Source: a virus
Strand: one strand, 5' to 3'
Virus record (IMG/VR): IMGVR_UViG_3300045988_117186
Coordinates: 1-37,906 of that record
Length of the DNA stretch: 37,906 nt
Of the stretch, positions 188-8,206 are shown piece by piece. Under the pieces are notes generated by a model. That model saw nothing but the letters and a program-made list of their open reading frames with translations, ran no database searches and was not told the DNA's origin. Every line of letters begins with the position of its first letter. The stretch's first letter is position 1. A program made the translations under genes and the position numbers.

Positions 188-1081
188 ATGCCAAAACAAT
201 ATTACTGGCTAAAACTTAAAGAAGATTTTTTTAGACAGAAAGAGATTAAAAAACTTAGAAGAATAGCTGGTGGGGATACATATACAATAATTTATCTAAA
301 AATGTTATTATTAGCAATTAAAGATGAAAACAAACTTTACTTTGAAGGTGTAGAAGATAGATTTGCAGACGAATTAGCTTTAGAACTAGATGAAGATGAA
401 GAAAATGTAGCTATGACATTAGCATTTTTAGAAAAACATAATTTAATTGAAATTATAAACGAAGAAGAGTTCTTTCTACCACAAGCAAAAGAGCTTACAG
501 GTAGCGAAAGCGAGAGTGCTGCTAGGGTTAGAAGACATAGAGAAAAAAAGAAGATGTTACAAAGTAACGGTAAAGCGTTACAATGTAACACCGATGTAAC
601 ACCAAGTAACAAAAACGTAACGACAGAGAAAGAGAAAGAGAAAGAGAAAGAGTTAGATATAGAGTTAGATATAGAGCAAAAACAGACAAACATACAAGCA
701 AACGAACTTTCCGAATTCTCTAAACTATATGAACAAAACATAGGTACTATTAATCAGTTAACAGGAGCTTGGCTTATAGAAATGTCTGAAACAATAGATT
801 TTGATTTGTTTAAAAGAGGTATAGAGATATGTACTGAAAGAGGAAAGTTAAATCTAGGCTATCTAAAAGGGATAATTAAAAGATGGCTAGATAGCAATAT
901 AACTACTTATGAACAGCTAAAGGCATATGAATTGCAAATGAAGGCAAATAAGAATAGTGACAATAAAAATTACGATATTTCAAAAGAAAAAGAAAAAGAA
1001 AAACCAAGTGTAGTACAATTACAGCCTTTCGATTTTAGCGAAGTGAGAAAAGAATTGGAGGAGATGGGAATTGAGTTATAA
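188..1081 (+). CDS. Phage replisome organizer with N-terminal phage_rep_org_N-like and C-terminal DnaD-like domains
   Basis: SD aaaggagg lies upstream. The N-terminus MPKQYYWLKLKEDFF..IYLKMLL is typical of replisome organizers. The C-terminus (SKLYEQNIG..LNLGYLKGIIKRWL) is typical of the DnaD/DnaB_2 domain. A low-complexity linker separates the two. Confidence 0.8.
   Translation: MPKQYYWLKLKEDFFRQKEIKKLRRIAGGDTYTIIYLKMLLLAIKDENKLYFEGVEDRFADELALELDEDEENVAMTLAFLEKHNLIEIINEEEFFLPQAKELTGSESESAARVRRHREKKKMLQSNGKALQCNTDVTPSNKNVTTEKEKEKEKELDIELDIEQKQTNIQANELSEFSKLYEQNIGTINQLTGAWLIEMSETIDFDLFKRGIEICTERGKLNLGYLKGIIKRWLDSNITTYEQLKAYELQMKANKNSDNKNYDISKEKEKEKPSVVQLQPFDFSEVRKELEEMGIEL
556..672. repeat. 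Iteron-like array plus tandem repeats inside the replisome organizer gene (candidate ori)
   Basis: GT(A/T)AC pentamers start at 556, 564, 577, 585, 596, 606 and 617. ATGTAACACC is repeated at 583 and 594. (AGAGAA)x4 occupies 625-648 and (AGAGTTAGATAT)x2 occupies 649-672. Confidence 0.55.
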
Positions 1082-2166: not shown

Positions 2167-2199
2167 AAATAAAAGAGAGAAGGTTATTTCCCTTCTCTC
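2165..2199 (-). terminator. Intrinsic terminator of the antisense RHH/GIY-YIG operon
   Basis: 9-bp stem GAGAGAAGG(2175-2183)/CCTTCTCTC(2191-2199). On the minus strand it is followed by ttttattttt. It overlaps the stop of the GIY-YIG ORF. Confidence 0.7.
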
Positions 2200-2630
2200 G
2201 ACTTAAGATAATCAGCTATTAACTTTTCTAATATCTTAGATACATCGGTATTTTCTTTGATAGCTTGAACTTTAATAGCTTTAATTAGTTCACTATCAAG
2301 TGTAAGTGGTAGTTTGCTTTTTTTAACATCTTTCAAAGATTTAACTTGAGAACGAGTAGCTTTTGAAGAATTATAACCGTTTTCTATTGAATTATATTTA
2401 TCTATATAATATTGTTCAATACTTACTAATACATCAAGATTTTCGATATTATCTTTTAATATAGAAATATGAAAATGTTCTTTACCAATTTCACTTATTG
2501 CTTTTCCAAGTTTAGTATATTTGGTATTGCAATGCTGTTTAAATCTTTCATGTATAGAATTGGTTGTTTGACCTATATATACTTTAGAATTAACATCATT
2601 AGTTATTATATAGACTTTACAAGTTCTCAT
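2184..2630 (-). CDS. GIY-YIG nuclease domain fused to a C-terminal ribbon-helix-helix domain
   Basis: Motifs KVYIITN, KVYIGQT, R in HERFKQH, E in SIEQYYIDKY, NGYN. C-terminal RHH pattern LPLTLDSELIKAIKVQAIKENTDVSKILEKLIADYLKS. SD taggagg. Confidence 0.75.
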   Translation of the reverse strand: MRTCKVYIITNDVNSKVYIGQTTNSIHERFKQHCNTKYTKLGKAISEIGKEHFHISILKDNIENLDVLVSIEQYYIDKYNSIENGYNSSKATRSQVKSLKDVKKSKLPLTLDSELIKAIKVQAIKENTDVSKILEKLIADYLKSREGK

Positions 2631-2924: not shown

Positions 2925-3539
2925 ATGCAAGAACAATGGAAACCTATAGAAGAATTTGAAAACTACGAAGTTAGTAGCTTAGGAAATGTAAGAAGTTTAA
3001 ATTACAAACGAACTGGAGAAATAAAAATACTTAAACCACAACAAGACAAAAATGGATATTTAATCGTTAATTTATATAAAAACAGAAAACTTTTCCATAA
3101 AAAAGTACATCGTTTAGTAGCTGGGGCTTTCATACCTAATCCAAAGAGAAAAACACAAGTAAATCATAAAGATGGAGATAAACAAAATAATAAAATTTCA
3201 AACCTAGAATGGACAACTTGTAAAGAAAATATTATTCATTGTCATGAAACAGGATTATGGAAACCAAAGTATGGAAATGAACACCATAATTACGGGAAGT
3301 GTTTATCAGAAAAAACTAAACAGAAAATGAGAGAGCAAAGAAAAGGGGAATTAAATTCAAATTCTAAAAGAGTAATATGCATAACTACAGGTGAAACATT
3401 TAGATATATAAGAGAAGCAGCAAGACAATATAACGTAGCAGCTGAAAGTATAGGCAGAGCATGTAAAGGACGTTCAAAAACAGCAGGCAGACATCCTGTA
3501 ACAGGTGAAAAATTAAAATGGGAATATGTGGAGGATTAA
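2925..3539 (+). CDS. HNH homing endonuclease (NUMOD4 + HNH_3 + C-terminal NUMOD1/IENR1-like HTH)
   Basis: EQWKPIEEFENYEVSSLGNVRS (NUMOD4). VHRLVAGAFIPNP..VNHKDGDKQNNKISNLEW (HNH). VICITTGETFRYIREAARQYNV (IENR1/NUMOD1-like). Confidence 0.85.
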   Translation: MQEQWKPIEEFENYEVSSLGNVRSLNYKRTGEIKILKPQQDKNGYLIVNLYKNRKLFHKKVHRLVAGAFIPNPKRKTQVNHKDGDKQNNKISNLEWTTCKENIIHCHETGLWKPKYGNEHHNYGKCLSEKTKQKMREQRKGELNSNSKRVICITTGETFRYIREAARQYNVAAESIGRACKGRSKTAGRHPVTGEKLKWEYVED

Positions 3540-3920: not shown

Positions 3921-4475
3921 ATGGACAGAGAAGAAAAAAATAAATTAGCAGAAGAAAACATAGCATTAGTTTATTCAATAGTTAACAAGAGATTTAATTA
4001 CAAAAGCATTACAAAAGAAGATAAAGAAAACTACATTGGGGAAGGGATTGTAGGGCTAGTAAAGGCAATTAACAAATTCGATGAGAATAAAGGTTTTGCA
4101 TTCTCTACATTCGCCTACAAATGCATAAATGGGGAAATATCTATGTATATAACAAAACAAAAATGTCAAAAGAGAAAGGTTGATGCTGAGTGTAAGGCAT
4201 CAATCGACAACAAAGTGCCACATTGTGAAGAACTAGAATATAGTGATTGGCTAATGGATATGAAAGATGATTATTCTTCTCTAGGAGAAAAAGAACATAT
4301 ATTGGACATGCTTGAAAAAACAAAGATAAAAGATATAAAAACTATTGTTGTAAAGAAAGCAGAAGGATACAAAAATAAAGAAATAGCAAAAATGATTGGA
4401 GCAAACGAAAATACAATCAGGAAAAGATTAGATAAAGCAAGAGATAAATTATTTGAATTAGGGATAACAGCATAG
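3921..4475 (+). CDS. Sigma-70 family RNA polymerase sigma factor (phage-encoded)
   Basis: Region 2-like GEGIVGLVKAINKFDENKGFAFSTFAYKCINGEISMYI. Region 4 HTH-like EGYKNKEIAKMIGANENTIRKRLDKARDKL. SD aggggga. Confidence 0.8.
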   Translation: MDREEKNKLAEENIALVYSIVNKRFNYKSITKEDKENYIGEGIVGLVKAINKFDENKGFAFSTFAYKCINGEISMYITKQKCQKRKVDAECKASIDNKVPHCEELEYSDWLMDMKDDYSSLGEKEHILDMLEKTKIKDIKTIVVKKAEGYKNKEIAKMIGANENTIRKRLDKARDKLFELGITA

Positions 4476-5232: not shown

Positions 5233-5373
5233 ATGGTAGAAGAAATAAAACAAGCACTAGAAACAATAAAGAAAGTGTGCAATAAACAAGACGACTGTGA
5301 AGGTTGCCCAATATCTAAGGTATTAGGATATAGTTGCCAAGAGGTAGCTATTCCAGAAGAATGGGAAGTATAA
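5233..5373 (+). CDS. Small hypothetical Cys-containing protein (46 aa), not in the ORF track
   Basis: Translation MVEEIKQALETIKKVCNKQDDCEGCPISKVLGYSCQEVAIPEEWEV*. SD ggaggagg lies upstream. Confidence 0.45.
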   Translation: MVEEIKQALETIKKVCNKQDDCEGCPISKVLGYSCQEVAIPEEWEV

Positions 5374-5396
5374 ATAATTTATTAAGGAGATTGAAT

Positions 5397-5792
5397 ATGA
5401 CTAAAGAAGAATTAATGCAATATGGGAGTATAGAATTAGAAGTAAAACAAATAAAAGAAAGAATAGAATACCTAGAAGAAAAGAAAACAAGTATAAAAAG
5501 CCAAGTTATAACAGATATGCCTGTAGGTGGAGGAGAAGGGACAGATATATTGACATTAATAACAAAAATCGAAGATAGTCAGATTGAATTGATACAAAAG
5601 CAAAGTAAATTAGTAGATATAATGGAAAGTATAGAACATACAATAGACGGATTAGAAGATAGTACAGAAAGATTAATATTGAGATCTAGATATTTGCAAT
5701 GTAAGAAATGGGAAGAAATATGCGTAGAACTTAATTACAGCTGGAGACAAATACATAGATTGCACTCAAATATACTTAAGAAAATAGCTTAG
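5397..5792 (+). CDS. DUF1492/ArpU-like phage transcriptional regulator (sigma-70 region-4-like)
   Basis: ATG at 5397 with SD aaggag. The C-terminus ERLILRSRYLQCKKWEEICVELNYSWRQIHRLHSNILKKI resembles a region-4 HTH. Regulators of this kind typically sit upstream of the late genes. Confidence 0.6.
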   Translation: MTKEELMQYGSIELEVKQIKERIEYLEEKKTSIKSQVITDMPVGGGEGTDILTLITKIEDSQIELIQKQSKLVDIMESIEHTIDGLEDSTERLILRSRYLQCKKWEEICVELNYSWRQIHRLHSNILKKIA

Positions 5793-6700: not shown

Positions 6701-7342
6701 ATGAAAAAGGGATTAGCTATAAGTTTATTGGTTGCAATCAGTTTAGGCATTGGAGTATTAGGAACAAATATATATTATAATAATTTACTTAAAACTCAGA
6801 TTAAACAACTATCTACTACTAATAAAGAAGAAAAGCTTGAAGATACAGTAGAAGATAAAAAAGAAACTACAACTAATAAAGATAAAAATTCAGATAAAGA
6901 AAGCAAACAAGTAATAAAAAATACAGAAACAAAAGAAACTGCAAAAACAAATACTAATACATCTCAAACTACAACAGAAAATAAAGAAACAAATAAATCT
7001 GACAGCAAAAATAAAACACAACAATCAAATAACTCAAATGAAGTAAAAAATAATTATAATATACCTGAGTATGTAGTTTGCCCTGGATGTAATATGGAAT
7101 TTAAAAAGAGTGATTTATCTAAAAAATGGAATGGATATTGTTTACGTTGCTATACAAAATATTGTAAACAAGAAGAAGATAGACATTGTCAATATTGTGG
7201 TGTTAAATTAAATGCCAATAACCAATACGGAGAAATAGATATGTGTAATTATTGCCATTATTTATACTGTGAAAAACCATATGAAAATAATAACAGTGGT
7301 ATAGACCCGCAACCAACACCATCTAAAGAACCTGGACTATAA
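6701..7342 (+). CDS. Membrane-anchored protein: N-terminal TM, T/N/K/E-rich low-complexity region, C-terminal 4x CxxC module
   Basis: MKKGLAISLLVAISLGIGVLGTNIYY (TM or signal anchor). CPGC..CLRC..CQYC..CNYC. SD aaagggg. The gene lies between two terminators. Confidence 0.7.
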   Translation: MKKGLAISLLVAISLGIGVLGTNIYYNNLLKTQIKQLSTTNKEEKLEDTVEDKKETTTNKDKNSDKESKQVIKNTETKETAKTNTNTSQTTTENKETNKSDSKNKTQQSNNSNEVKNNYNIPEYVVCPGCNMEFKKSDLSKKWNGYCLRCYTKYCKQEEDRHCQYCGVKLNANNQYGEIDMCNYCHYLYCEKPYENNNSGIDPQPTPSKEPGL

Positions 7343-7479
7343 TAAATACAAGTAGAAAAAAGGATGAAAATTAGAGAATGAGGGCATAAAATGGCACACC
7401 GATATGTGTTACTATAATAGTATAGAAAAACAATTAAAAAAGGTTATTTTTCTTATACGTTAACATTTGTATTTATTTT

Positions 7480-7905
7480 AAGTAGAAAGCCTGGTAAACT
7501 TTCTACTGCCTTTACAACTAGTATTTTTTTAGTAGAAATTGATTTCTGATTTTATATTTTGTTCATTTTATTCTAGTAATCGCCCGCCAGGAGGTAAAAC
7601 TCCTGGCAACATGCAGACATTGGATATACTTTTAAGTATTATAAGTTCGATTCTTATAGTCTGCCCATTGGTCCCTTCTTATAGCATAAATATATGGGGC
7701 TTTAATAAAGCCCCAACAAAAGAACTCATCAAGCCTATGTTTATATGCTCAAATGGATGGGACAAAAGAAAAATTTAACCGTAACATAAAATGTATTTAA
7801 ATAGAGTATTAATTATGCACCAACACTTGCATAAATTAATTTATAGATTTTTCAAAATTTCATACAACCCCAATTACAGAGAGGACCCTTCGGGGTTCTT
7901 TTTAT
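7480..7905 (+). ncRNA. Candidate structured non-coding RNA (unclassified) in an ORF-free gap
   Basis: GC-rich hairpins in an AT-rich background: 7482-7506, 7586-7607, 7696-7714. tRNA-like acceptor/T-arm mimic at 7613-7667. The region ends with an intrinsic terminator at 7881-7905. Boundaries are uncertain. Confidence 0.3.
7881..7905 (+). terminator. Intrinsic terminator immediately upstream of the packaging/late operon
   Basis: GGACCC-ttcg-GGGTTC hairpin, extendable with G-U pairs, followed by tttttatt. Confidence 0.7.
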
Positions 7906-7930
7906 TATGTGAAAGAAAGAGTTGATCTAA

Positions 7931-8191
7931 ATGAGTAGAAAAGTATTTCAGAGAAAAGAGTATTCGATTTATAGAGCTGGTGATGGGTTTATTATACATA
8001 ACACTAATGGAGAATTTGTAAAACATCATACTCATATAAGAAGTTTTAAGAAAGCTAAGAGTATAGTGGATTTATGTATTAGAAAGAAGTTGCCAGATAA
8101 ACCGAATATATGGGAAATAGAAAGCTTAATGAGATTAACAAGAAATAATGCTTATTATAACCAGTTAAGGGATTTATTAAATAAATTATAA
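7931..8191 (+). CDS. Hypothetical protein (86 aa) preceding terS
   Basis: ORF with a weak SD. No recognisable motif. Confidence 0.55.
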   Translation: MSRKVFQRKEYSIYRAGDGFIIHNTNGEFVKHHTHIRSFKKAKSIVDLCIRKKLPDKPNIWEIESLMRLTRNNAYYNQLRDLLNKL

Positions 8192-8206
8192 GAAAGGAGT
8201 GGTATT

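What the first reader, a model, noticed from the sequence alone, without database searches (positions are those of the whole stretch)
7343..7930. ~590-nt ORF-free, hairpin-rich region with a tRNA-like minihelix, ending in a terminator just before the late operon
No credible ORF lies between the membrane-protein moron and the packaging genes. In an AT-rich genome this gap holds several GC-rich stems. These are GTAGAAAG/CTTTCTAC (7482-7506), GCCAGGAG/CTCCTGGC (7586-7607) and GGGGCTTT/AAAGCCCC (7696-7714). A terminator, GGACCC-ttcg-GGGTTC plus a T-run (7881-7905), lies on the plus strand. At 7613-7667 there is a tRNA-like mimic. It comprises acceptor GCAGAC(A)/(A)GTCTGC, a perfect T-arm ATAAG-TTCGATT-CTTAT with a canonical T-loop sequence, and a 3' CCA. 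Only one small hairpin stands in place of the D and anticodon arms, so it is about 52 nt and not a real tRNA. AGTAGAAA occurs three times (7351, 7481, 7531). Large structured RNAs of unknown function (GOLLD, ROOL) are known from Firmicute prophages, often next to tRNAs, and this gap has a similar size and context. Alternatives are the pac/terS-binding region, or a promoter-proximal terminator controlling late genes by antitermination, as with lambda PR'/tR'.
Basis: partly seen in the sequence, partly recalled or inferred. Interest (0 to 1): 0.65.

Follow-up and report, generated by a model that had tools for sequence, protein, structure and literature searches.

The report
Phage late-operon leader with tRNA mimic
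The gap is most likely the promoter, long structured RNA leader and terminator in front of a gut clostridial phage's packaging genes; its core is a conserved tRNA-like element shared with published C. difficile phages and absent from Rfam, and this phage's copy also carries look-alikes of a CRISPR repeat and an AbiF antitoxin RNA.

Summary
Positions 7343-7930 are non-coding, and all four stems and the tRNA-like minihelix are at the stated coordinates.

It is not GOLLD, ROOL, a tRNA or a tmRNA (Rfam and ARAGORN are negative). It is not a pac site either, because the identical 588 nt precede three different terminase sets.

It looks like a conserved late-operon leader with these parts:
- a sigma-A-like promoter (7391-7418) with a conserved core TATAATAGTAT;
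- D-loop-like hairpins;
- a module of hairpin, AAYAU linker and tRNA-like element (7586-7664);
- an intrinsic terminator (7879-7905) just before the ribosome-binding site.

The module recurs in 54 of 77 related metagenomic loci and in C. difficile phages phiC2 and phiCDKH01. Covariation supports it (98% paired, 10 of 22 pairs changed on both sides). A covariance model built without the window finds it at E = 7e-9.

My best guess is that it is an RNase P / RNase Z processing signal, like plant mitochondrial t-elements, inside a terminator-gated leader. That step is inferred, not shown.

This variant also carries two additions:
- an orphan abiF motif (7725-7762);
- a solitary CRISPR repeat (7773-7802), 28/30 identical to real type I repeats, so possibly RNA decoys against host defences.

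I rate it a new variant of a known kind, interest about 0.68.

The parts
7383..7396 (+). Two GGCA half-sites 10 nt apart, overlapping the -35. They are candidate binding sites for the RinA-family late regulator encoded at 5334-5792.
   Evidence: Sequence. The allelic variant GTGGCAC..TGTCAC occurs in L037, L041 and L047. L027 has the same motif. Other leader types carry their own direct repeats at the same place: L001 TTCCGYAAAAG x3, L008 GGACA x4, phiC2 TTCCCCAG-like x5. The regulator scores 31.6 bits on TIGR01636 RinA, just under its 31.9 cut-off, plus DUF1492. The binding role is inferred.
7391..7423 (+). Sigma-A-like promoter: -35 ATGGCA (TTGTCA in the other allele), 16-nt spacer, -10 TATAAT at 7413-7418. 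The conserved core is TATAATAGTAT. The predicted transcription start is near 7425.
   Evidence: The promoter scan gives 10 of 12 matches. The core (T/G)ATAATAGTAT aligns across six leader types, including phiCDKH01 and phiC2 (A5). No transcript data exist.
7481..7507 (+). Hairpin H1, a 9-bp stem with loop CCUGGUAAA that resembles a tRNA D-loop.
   Evidence: Fold -9.3 kcal/mol, z -2.3. Hairpins with a UGGUAA loop but different stems occur in L001 (CTAGAAGT-CTGGTAAA-CTTCTAG), L027, L005, phiCDKH01 and phiC2.
7586..7607 (+). Hairpin H2 (GCCAGGAG-GUAAAA-CUCCUGGC), which ends 5 nt before the tRNA-like element.
   Evidence: Fold -17.3 kcal/mol, z -5.3. The H2 helix covaries in A4, with 3 of 7 pairs changed on both sides, and RNAalifold predicts it independently. 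40 of 41 unique element contexts have such a hairpin ending no more than 7 nt before +1.
7608..7612 (+). Linker AACAU. The predicted RNase P cut falls between U7612 and G7613.
   Evidence: The linker consensus is AAYAU/AAYGU. Position -1 is U in 39 of 41 contexts and +1 is G in 41 of 41. Cleavage is inferred.
7613..7667 (+). tRNA-like element (TLE). It has a 6-bp acceptor stem with a mismatched seventh pair, then UUGG, a small hairpin, the T arm ATAAG-UUCGAUU-CUUAU, the acceptor 3' strand and CCA.
   Evidence: Descriptor scan. Covariation in A4: 98% of cells paired, 10 of 22 pairs changed on both sides, 0 of 500 shuffles as good, slid controls 25-40% paired. RNAalifold agrees. Model R1, built without this sequence, hits 7585-7672 at 50.8 bits, E 6.8e-9.
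7695..7715 (.). Palindromic hairpin H3 (UGGGGCUUU-AAU-AAAGCCCCA). It occurs only in this leader variant. On the - strand it reads as a terminator.
   Evidence: Fold -13.7 kcal/mol, z -3.2. The terminator scan lists it on the - strand. Its role is unknown.
7725..7762 (+). Orphan abiF-type motif, an AbiF antitoxin-like RNA element.
   Evidence: Rfam RF03085 scores 25.0 bits (gathering 37), E 0.07. The conserved CAAGCCU and GCUCAAAU match exactly, and the outer stem keeps pairing through changes. The two motifs of the validated antitoxin RNA in phiC2 score 37.6 and 19.5 bits (PMC12373285). The core pattern is found only in this leader type, plus one stemless case, in 1.88 Mb. No Abi_2 gene was found among 19 of the window's ORFs scanned with Pfam.
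7773..7802 (+). Solitary CRISPR repeat unit ATTTAACCGTAACATAAAATGTATTTAAAT, in sense orientation.
   Evidence: Rfam CRISPR-DR3 scores 37.5 bits (gathering 41), E 0.008. It is the only copy in the window. It is 28/30 identical to array repeats of Tepidibacter sp. Z1-5 (24 copies) and of a Clostridium MAG. The Tepidibacter array follows cas3-cas4-cas1-cas2 and a leader, in the same orientation.
7808..7840 (+). AT-rich imperfect palindrome or hairpin (AUUAAUUAUGCA...UGCAUAAAUUAAU).
   Evidence: Fold -7.1 kcal/mol, z -2.4. It lies in the 7796-7930 block shared at 73-77% identity with leaders that lack the TLE (L001, L043, L045, L050, L052). L001 keeps the pairing with a different loop. Whether it acts as DNA or RNA is unknown.
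7879..7905 (+). Intrinsic terminator (GAGAGGACCC-UUCG-GGGUUCUUUU followed by a U-run), placed about 10 nt before the ribosome-binding site.
   Evidence: Fold -14.6 kcal/mol, z -3.1. Terminators of -12 to -15 kcal/mol with unrelated sequences lie at the 3' end of the leader in all seven representative leaders; in all but phiC2 that is just before the first late gene.
7911..7933 (+). Ribosome-binding site (GAAAGAAAGAG) and ATG of the first late gene. This is an 86-aa protein of PHROG 9079, followed by terS and terL.
   Evidence: ORF list and family hits.

Best explanation
Positions 7343-7930 are the control region and transcribed leader of the phage's late (packaging, head, tail, lysis) operon.

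Proposed sequence of events:
1. A sigma-A-like promoter at 7391-7418, flanked by sites for the RinA-family late regulator, starts a roughly 480-nt structured RNA on the + strand.
2. That RNA ends at, or must read through, the intrinsic terminator at 7879-7905, just before the first late gene.
3. The conserved core of the leader is a module of stable hairpin, AAYAU linker and tRNA-like element (7586-7664). The element keeps what tRNA-maturation enzymes recognise: a 12-position acceptor/T-stem stack, G+1 paired with C, U at -1, a UUCRANY T-loop and a GG after the acceptor strand. It lacks D and anticodon arms.
4. I propose it works like plant mitochondrial t-elements or mascRNA. RNase P cuts at U7612/G7613, leaving an upstream fragment capped by hairpin H2. 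RNase Z or 3' exonucleases trim behind 7664. This releases a 3' fragment (about 7666-7905) that ends in the terminator hairpin, or else the 5' end of the late mRNA.
5. In this phage variant the 3' fragment carries an abiF-type motif and a solitary CRISPR repeat.

Shown: the anatomy, its conservation, the covariation, the strand and the position.
Inferred: transcription from this promoter, cleavage by RNase P and RNase Z, and gating by the terminator.
For: - Non-coding. ORFs in the gap have no family and are not conserved.
- Moves as a module. The gap is 97-100% identical in more than 15 otherwise mosaic phage contigs.
- Shared architecture. Regulator gene, direct repeats, core TATAATAGTAT, hairpins, TLE, terminator and ribosome-binding site occur in that order in several leader types, including C. 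difficile phages phiCDKH01 and phiC2. The phiCDKH01 leader is 73-100% identical in 27 phage records.
- Recurrence. The TLE is present on the + strand upstream of the first late gene in 54 of 77 metagenomic relatives. Background is 9 hits, 3 of them with the GG, in 1.8 Mb (both strands) of genome DNA.
- Covariation. 98% of cells paired, 10 of 22 pairs with double changes, 0 of 500 shuffles as good, slid controls 25-40%. RNAalifold agrees.
- Model test. The model built without the window finds it at E 6.8e-9 and gave no hit at E <= 10 in any of the ten background genome loci searched.
- Cut-site signature. U at -1 in 39 of 41 contexts, G at +1 in 41 of 41, upstream hairpin in 40 of 41.
- Precedents from established knowledge: t-elements (PMC1920247), mascRNA, the tRNA-linked microRNA precursors of murine gammaherpesvirus 68 (TMERs), and RNase P maturation of P4 CI RNA and P1 C4 RNA.
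Against: - No transcript or cleavage data exist for any member.
- The leader type of L001 lacks the TLE yet keeps the promoter, H1, the palindrome and the terminator. The TLE is therefore dispensable for late expression as such.
- The TLE lies upstream of the terminator, so cutting there does not by itself explain how polymerase passes the terminator.
- The residue after the acceptor stem is usually U followed by AAU, and the CCA is not conserved. I cannot say whether this is a good RNase Z context.
- In the minimum-energy fold of the whole leader the T arm is not formed.
- In isolation the minihelix is thermodynamically unremarkable (z -1.45).
Confidence: 0.5

Rival explanations
1. Processive antitermination leader. 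The hairpins and tRNA-like element act in cis on RNA polymerase, as the put RNA of HK022 or the EAR RNA of B. subtilis do. Alternatively they load a phage protein, as lambda qut/Q does. Either way, transcripts from this promoter would read through the terminator at 7879-7905 into the late genes.
For: The arrangement matches lambda Q-PR'-6S-tR': late-regulator gene, promoter, leader, strong terminator, late genes. It is conserved in all seven representative leaders even though the terminator sequences differ. There is no room for another promoter between the terminator and the ATG.
Against: L001-type leaders lack the TLE but keep the terminator. I found no consistent antiterminator pairing with the terminator's 5' arm. 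Nothing about a T-loop/acceptor mimic is known to act on RNA polymerase. No antiterminator protein was identified.
Confidence: 0.17
2. tRNA-mimic decoy. The minihelix binds or soaks up a host factor that recognises the tRNA elbow or acceptor end. Candidates are an acceptor-end-modifying toxin of the AbiEii/MenT type, the CCA-adding enzyme or a T-box leader. This would protect the host tRNA pool or manipulate the host late in infection.
For: Only the elbow and acceptor features are conserved. In this window the element sits beside two other motifs that resemble defence-system RNAs. Some leaders carry two copies.
Against: The 3' CCA needed for an acceptor-end decoy is not encoded in most members. 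No target system was identified. The invariant upstream hairpin and the U-1/G+1 pattern fit a processing site better.
Confidence: 0.1
3. Decaying remnants of phage tRNA genes, with no present function.
For: Phage tRNA genes often lie between the early and late regions. The H1 and H2 loops resemble D-loops, and the T arm and acceptor resemble a tRNA 3' half.
Against: Pairing is kept through compensatory changes within homologous families. The same truncated geometry recurs across leader types: 39 of 41 unique contexts have either a short insert of 20-27 nt (28) or a long one of 54-59 nt (11), and 40 of 41 have a hairpin ending within 7 nt of +1. The whole gap is 100% conserved across mosaic phages.
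Confidence: 0.05
4. Packaging recognition site (pac or cos) for the small terminase.
For: It lies immediately upstream of terS and contains short repeats such as AGTAGAAA.
Against: The identical 588 nt precede three different terminase sets: terS 167 aa with Terminase_3 terL; terS 290 aa with Terminase_6N terL; and a TerL_ATPase-type terL. In phiC2 the homologous leader is separated from the genome end and terS by about 2.8 kb of other genes.
Confidence: 0.03
5. A small hydrophobic protein (ORF 7611-7778, 55 aa from the internal ATG), for example a type I toxin, with the hairpins as its regulatory 5' UTR.
For: A GGAGG lies 16 nt upstream of the ATG. The N-terminus is hydrophobic. Of the two substitutions among variants, one is synonymous and one is V to A.
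Against: The ORF is not kept in L005 or L027, where the same RNA module is conserved; there it gives 18-27 aa of unrelated peptide. tblastn finds no relatives among phages. The synonymous change is also the allowed R57 position of the T-loop.
Confidence: 0.03

Closest known systems
t-elements of plant mitochondrial transcripts; mascRNA at the 3' end of MALAT1; the tRNA-linked microRNA precursors (TMERs) of murine gammaherpesvirus 68
   Same: These are non-decoding tRNA-like structures embedded in longer transcripts. They keep the acceptor/T-arm features and are cut by RNase P and RNase Z to define the ends of neighbouring RNAs. In MALAT1 a stabilising structure sits just upstream of the cut, as H2 does here.
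   Different: They are eukaryotic, organellar or from eukaryotic viruses. There is no sequence relation, and processing of the phage element is untested.
P4 CI RNA and P1/P7 C4 antisense RNA (Rfam C4 family)
   Same: They are phage leader-derived small RNAs matured by RNase P from a longer transcript that also controls downstream gene expression.
   Different: They come from Gram-negative phages and function in immunity. They have no T-loop/acceptor mimic of this form, and Rfam gives no match.
Lambda PR'-6S RNA-tR' late control (Q antitermination)
   Same: The order is the same: late-regulator gene, promoter, short non-coding transcript ending at a strong terminator, late genes.
   Different: The regulator here is RinA/ArpU-like (sigma region-4-like), not Q. 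The leader is 350-800 nt and structured. No qut-like element or antiterminator has been shown.
tRNA-like domain of tmRNA
   Same: It has an acceptor stem plus T arm with a reduced D region containing GG, and no anticodon arm.
   Different: There is no mRNA-like domain, no pseudoknots and no G3:U70. ARAGORN finds no tmRNA.
RNA anti-CRISPRs (Racr) and viral solitary repeat units (PMC10651486); viral crRNA-like regulatory RNAs (bioRxiv 10.1101/2024.10.29.618823)
   Same: 7773-7802 is a single CRISPR repeat in a phage non-coding region. It is in sense orientation and keeps the repeat hairpin and the ATTTAAAT handle.
   Different: This repeat family was not among the tested Racrs. The nearest predicted promoter is about 355 nt upstream. 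The host and its CRISPR-Cas system are unknown, and no inhibition has been shown.
RCd22 / abiF motif (RF03085), the RNA antitoxin of prophage AbiF in C. difficile (PMC12373285)
   Same: 7725-7762 has the conserved CAAGCCU...GCUCAAAU core and the closing stem. Its score lies between those of the two motifs of phiC2's RCd22-type RNA, the kind validated in R20291.
   Different: There is one copy rather than two. No abiF gene lies next to it or was found among the 19 window ORFs scanned. It scores below Rfam's gathering score.
GOLLD and ROOL large RNAs
   Same: They too are long, structured, non-coding RNAs found in Firmicute prophages.
   Different: There is no Rfam match at any threshold used. 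This region is modular rather than one large fold.

Membership tests
Canonical tRNA | Cloverleaf with D arm and anticodon arm, detectable by tRNA finders | tested here: not met
   ARAGORN finds 0 genes in the window and in 13 related loci. Rfam's tRNA clan gives only 15.5 bits, E 6.6. Only 21 nt lie between the acceptor 5' strand and the T arm.
Canonical tRNA | Acceptor stem stacked on a 5-bp T stem with a UUCRANY loop, and a G1-C72 pair | tested here: met
tmRNA | tRNA-like domain plus tag-encoding mRNA-like domain | tested here: not met
   ARAGORN finds none. The Rfam tmRNA hit is 6.6 bits and lies elsewhere.
GOLLD / ROOL | Match to the Rfam covariance models | tested here: not met
   There are no hits at gathering score in the window or in 17 related loci, and none at E <= 10 in 7100-8200.
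RNase P / RNase Z substrate (t-element-like) | 12-position acceptor/T-stem stack, T-loop, G+1 and U-1 | tested here: met
   U at -1 in 39 of 41 contexts, G at +1 in 41 of 41, G1-C72 invariant.
RNase P / RNase Z substrate (t-element-like) | Actual cleavage at the predicted sites | not testable with these tools
   This needs in-vitro cleavage or mapping of RNA ends.
Lambda-type late antitermination unit | Promoter, leader, intrinsic terminator, late genes, all downstream of the late-regulator gene | tested here: met
Lambda-type late antitermination unit | A factor or RNA that makes polymerase resistant to termination | not testable with these tools
   No Q homologue was looked for or found. No consistent antiterminator pairing exists.
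Clostridial type I CRISPR repeat family (ATTTAAAT-ending) | Full-length similarity to repeats of real arrays, including the hairpin and the 3' handle | tested here: met
   28/30 identity to the Tepidibacter sp. Z1-5 repeat (24 copies, next to cas3-cas4-cas1-cas2) and to a Clostridium MAG array.
CRISPR array | Two or more repeats separated by spacers | tested here: not met
   There is a single copy in the window even at 3 mismatches. The downstream 'spacer' is leader sequence shared with phages that lack the repeat.
Racr (RNA anti-CRISPR) | Solitary repeat unit in a viral genome, not next to cas genes | tested here: met
Racr (RNA anti-CRISPR) | Own promoter within about 250 bp upstream (the selection criterion in PMC10651486) | tested here: inconclusive
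   The best promoter is 355 nt upstream, at 7391-7418. Only weak 9-of-12 matches inside H2 and the TLE lie nearer.
Racr (RNA anti-CRISPR) | Host carries the matching CRISPR-Cas system and is inhibited | not testable with these tools
   The host was not identified. The closest repeats are in Peptostreptococcaceae and Clostridium genomes. No spacer in the fetched arrays hits the window.
abiF motif RF03085 | Score at or above Rfam's gathering score (37 bits) | tested here: not met
   It scores 25.0 bits, E 0.07 over 1.1 kb.
abiF motif RF03085 | Conserved loop nucleotides and closing stem, as in validated RCd22 motifs | tested here: inconclusive
   CAAGCCU and GCUCAAAU match exactly and the 6-bp stem is kept. 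The phiC2 RCd22 motifs score 37.6 and 19.5 bits. The pattern is rare in 1.88 Mb.
abiF motif RF03085 | Located upstream of an abiF (Abi_2) gene | tested here: not met
   No Abi_2 domain was found in the 19 window ORFs scanned. The downstream genes are packaging genes.
pac/cos packaging site | Co-inheritance with its cognate terminase | tested here: not met
   The same gap precedes three terminase types.

The most novel reading that the evidence does not exclude
The late leader may be a non-coding 'anti-defence RNA operon'. The phage would borrow the host's tRNA-maturation enzymes, through the tRNA-like element, to cut small RNAs out of one transcript. In this variant the released 3' RNA carries two decoys side by side. 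One is an AbiF antitoxin mimic that would neutralise prophage-borne AbiF toxins. The other is a CRISPR-repeat mimic (a Racr-type or crRNA-like RNA) that would tie up type I Cas proteins. The hairpin-plus-TLE cassette, widespread in clostridial and C. difficile phages, would then be a general device for producing such RNAs.
Probability: 0.15. Interest if true: 0.85.

Novelty: new variant of a known kind. Interest (0 to 1): 0.68.

Why it matters
If the tRNA-like element is a processing signal, it would be a bacterial-virus counterpart of t-elements and mascRNA. It would also explain a conserved, unannotated stretch of about 350-800 nt in front of the late genes of many gut clostridial phages, including the standard C. 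difficile phages phiC2, phiCD119 and phiCD27.

This makes late-gene control in these phages directly testable with strains and RNA-seq data that already exist.

The orphan abiF motif and the solitary CRISPR repeat, lying side by side, are candidate RNA-based counter-defences in a clade where both AbiF/RCd22 and phage-borne CRISPR arrays are known. That is relevant to phage therapy against C. difficile and its relatives.

Tried and rejected
- Rfam at gathering score on the window and on 17 related loci found nothing. The permissive scan of eight other leaders, and those of phiCDKH01 and phiC2, gave no credible match.
- ARAGORN found no tRNA or tmRNA.
- blastn of the gap against 50,697 phage records gave no match. 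The link to C. difficile phages came only through portal homology and structure.
- tblastn of the 55-aa ORF gave only chance hits.
- Looking for a second repeat or a mini-array around the solitary repeat found none.
- Looking for spacers against this phage in 120 genome and 44 viral array loci found none. One 27-nt hit, in L153, lies in coding DNA.
- Looking for tRNA-like elements next to phage-borne CRISPR arrays found none.
- Searching for a conserved antiterminator partner of the terminator's 5' arm gave inconsistent positions.
- The host was not identified.
- Literature searches for a described tRNA-like or late-leader RNA in these phages found nothing relevant.
- The 86-aa first late gene has no PDB, Pfam or NCBIfam relative.
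Full report
**What is there.** The window is a temperate siphovirus-like genome of about 30% G+C. Its portal is 67% identical to those of C. difficile phages phiCDKH01 and phiCD24-1. The gene order around the finding is:
- a RinA-family late regulator at 5334-5792 (DUF1492; TIGR01636 at 31.6 bits);
- ThyX, then a 213-aa membrane/zinc-ribbon protein ending at 7342;
- the 588-nt gap;
- an 86-aa gene of PHROG 9079 at 7931, then terS and terL.

The + strand of 7425-7910 folds with z -4.6, against -2.6 for the - strand. ARAGORN finds no tRNA or tmRNA. Rfam 15 has no match at gathering score. ORFs inside the gap have no family and are not conserved.

**The gap moves as a unit and is not a pac site.** The same 588 nt, 97-100% identical, occur in more than 15 IMG/VR and metagenome contigs, mostly from human gut, whose flanking genes are mosaic. 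Variation is confined to 7363-7400, where there are two alleles just upstream of the -10. The identical gap precedes three unrelated terminase sets. That excludes a terminase recognition site.

**Other leader types have the same ground plan.** Relatives that carry the 86-aa gene have gaps of 230-855 nt that BLAST cannot align with the window. Read side by side, they show a common order of parts:
- type-specific direct repeats, often just after the late-regulator gene;
- a conserved promoter core (T/G)ATAATAGTAT;
- hairpins with UGGUAA-type loops;
- usually one or two tRNA-like elements;
- an intrinsic terminator of -12 to -15 kcal/mol, which in all but phiC2 sits 10-25 nt before the ribosome-binding site of the first late gene.

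phiCDKH01 and phiC2 have the same plan. The phiCDKH01 leader is 73-100% identical over about 380 nt in 27 phage records, including phiCD119, phiC2, phiCD27, phiMMP01-03 and CDMH1, and it is unannotated in most of them.

**The tRNA-like element is a conserved, covarying module.** A simple descriptor asked for a 5-bp T stem, a TTCRANY loop, six acceptor pairs and GG after the acceptor strand. It finds the element on the + strand upstream of the first late gene in 54 of 77 metagenomic relatives. Background was 9 hits (3 with the GG, some probably real tRNAs) in 1.8 Mb, counting both strands, of unrelated clostridial genome DNA.

Forty-one unique contexts share these features:
- a stable hairpin ending no more than 7 nt before +1 (40 of 41);
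- a linker AAYAU;
- U at -1 (39 of 41);
- G at +1 (41 of 41).

The 3' tail is usually UAAU. The CCA is peculiar to the window's type.

An alignment anchored by BLAST, not by the descriptor, holds 27 distinct sequences plus the window. It shows 98% of cells paired and 10 of 22 pairs changed on both sides. None of 500 shuffles did as well, and slid controls gave 25-40% pairing. RNAalifold independently predicts H2, the acceptor stem and the T arm. For the long-insert type it predicts the acceptor stem with covariation.

A covariance model built from 23 sequences without the window type hits window 7585-7672 at 50.8 bits, E 6.8e-9. It also hits phiC2 (32 bits) and phiCDKH01 (28 bits). It gave no hit at E <= 10 in any of the ten background genome loci searched.

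The ORF that overlaps the element in the window is replaced by unrelated short peptides in L005 and L027. The constraint is therefore on the RNA.

**How it probably works.** The conserved features are those read by tRNA-maturation enzymes rather than by the ribosome: an acceptor/T-stem stack of 12 positions, the T-loop, a GG that can mimic G18-G19, G1-C72, and U at -1. There is no anticodon arm. The invariant hairpin 5 nt upstream is what one would expect to protect the 3' end of the fragment left by an RNase P cut.

I therefore favour a processing signal, like plant mitochondrial t-elements (PMC1920247), mascRNA or the tRNA-linked microRNA precursors (TMERs) of murine gammaherpesvirus 68. Phage precedents are the RNase P maturation of P4 CI RNA and P1 C4 RNA, which I cite from established knowledge. 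The signal would sit inside a leader whose terminator gates the late genes.

This is inference, and three things count against it. The L001-type leader lacks the element. Cutting upstream of the terminator does not explain read-through. No consistent antiterminator pairing was found. A put-like or Q-like antitermination role, or a tRNA-mimic decoy, cannot be excluded.

**Two further motifs in this variant.** Relative to L001-type leaders, the window has extra sequence that ends at about 7795. Homology resumes at 7796, inside the last bases of a 30-nt solitary CRISPR repeat at 7773-7802.

- *The solitary repeat.* It is 28/30 identical to the repeats of a 24-copy array in Tepidibacter sp. Z1-5 and to those of a Clostridium MAG, differing only in two positions (for Tepidibacter, both in the hairpin loop). 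In Tepidibacter the array follows cas3-cas4-cas1-cas2 and a leader, in the orientation that puts the window's repeat in sense on the + strand. About 21 viral contigs carry arrays of this family. Full-length solitary copies are rare: the window type, L032 and L258. It has no spacer partner. This fits the solitary repeat units described as RNA anti-CRISPRs (PMC10651486), though it could equally be a remnant of a lost array.
- *The abiF motif.* Ten bases upstream, 7725-7762 matches Rfam's abiF motif at 25 bits. The conserved loops match exactly and the closing stem is kept. In C. difficile this motif, as the RNA RCd22, is a type III-like antitoxin of prophage AbiF (PMC12373285). The two motifs of phiC2's RCd22 score 37.6 and 19.5 bits in the same test, so 25 bits is within the range of working motifs. 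The core pattern is otherwise essentially absent from 1.88 Mb of related DNA. No Abi_2 gene was found among the 19 window ORFs scanned, so the motif appears to be orphan.

Two defence-related RNA look-alikes sit side by side, downstream of a putative processing signal and upstream of a terminator. That suggests, but does not show, an RNA decoy cassette.

**Verdict.** The tRNA-like minihelix turns out to be a member of a widespread module that I could not find in Rfam or in the searchable literature.

I class it as a new variant of a known kind, namely tRNA-like processing or mimic elements and phage late leaders. My confidence is moderate in the processing mechanism and low to moderate in the decoy reading.

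Noticed in passing
window 7773-7802: A solitary CRISPR repeat, in sense orientation on the + strand and 28/30 identical to real type I array repeats. It sits exactly at the junction where homology with TLE-less leaders resumes.
   Followed up: yes
window 7725-7762: An orphan abiF-type (RCd22-like) antitoxin motif. No abiF gene was found among the 19 window ORFs scanned.
   Followed up: yes
window 7531-7549 vs 7934-7952; 7499-7507: A leader segment resembles the first 19 nt after the ATG of the first late gene (79% identity). The 3' arm of H1 is complementary to the start-codon region. This could be a cis pairing or plain sequence drift.
   Followed up: no
window 7864-7877; L027, L008, L173, L251 just upstream of their terminators: A C-rich motif (ACAACCCCAAUUAC, UGUCCCCUAACU, UAUCCCCUAAG and similar) lies 5-20 nt before the terminator in most leader types. 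Its function is unknown; it could act as an anti-Shine-Dalgarno sequence.
   Followed up: no
window 7490-7498, 7594-7599; L001, L005, L027, L173, L251 hairpins: Hairpin loops repeatedly contain UGGUAA or GGURAAA. This resembles the tRNA D-loop G18-G19-U20-A21, or the UGGN of T-box leaders.
   Followed up: partly
L251 (phiC2 NC_009231 53.3-54.1 kb); 27 C. difficile phage records: An unannotated leader of about 400 nt, with two tRNA-like elements and a terminator, lies downstream of the sigma-like gene p80. It is conserved across the classic C. difficile phages.
   Followed up: partly
window 3921-4475 and 5334-5792: The phage encodes both an ECF-type sigma factor and a RinA-family regulator. Relatives with the same gap often lack the sigma factor.
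   Followed up: no
window 2184-2630 (-), 2925-3539 (+); L042, L047, L046: GIY-YIG and HNH/NUMOD4 homing-endonuclease-like genes lie in the early region. Some relatives have ISL3 transposase insertions near the gap, and in L046 terL is split into three ORFs.
   Followed up: no
L032 about 329-358 (- strand); L258: Other full-length solitary repeats of the same CRISPR family occur in non-coding DNA of viral contigs. About 21 viral contigs carry arrays of 2-17 repeats.
   Followed up: partly
L008-L024 and L182-L201, upstream of the 86-aa homologue: In the long-leader type, the first late gene has an N-terminal extension of about 37 aa. The tRNA-like element has a 54-59-nt insert with its own covarying helix. 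Some of these leaders carry a second, minimal element with an 11-nt insert.
   Followed up: partly
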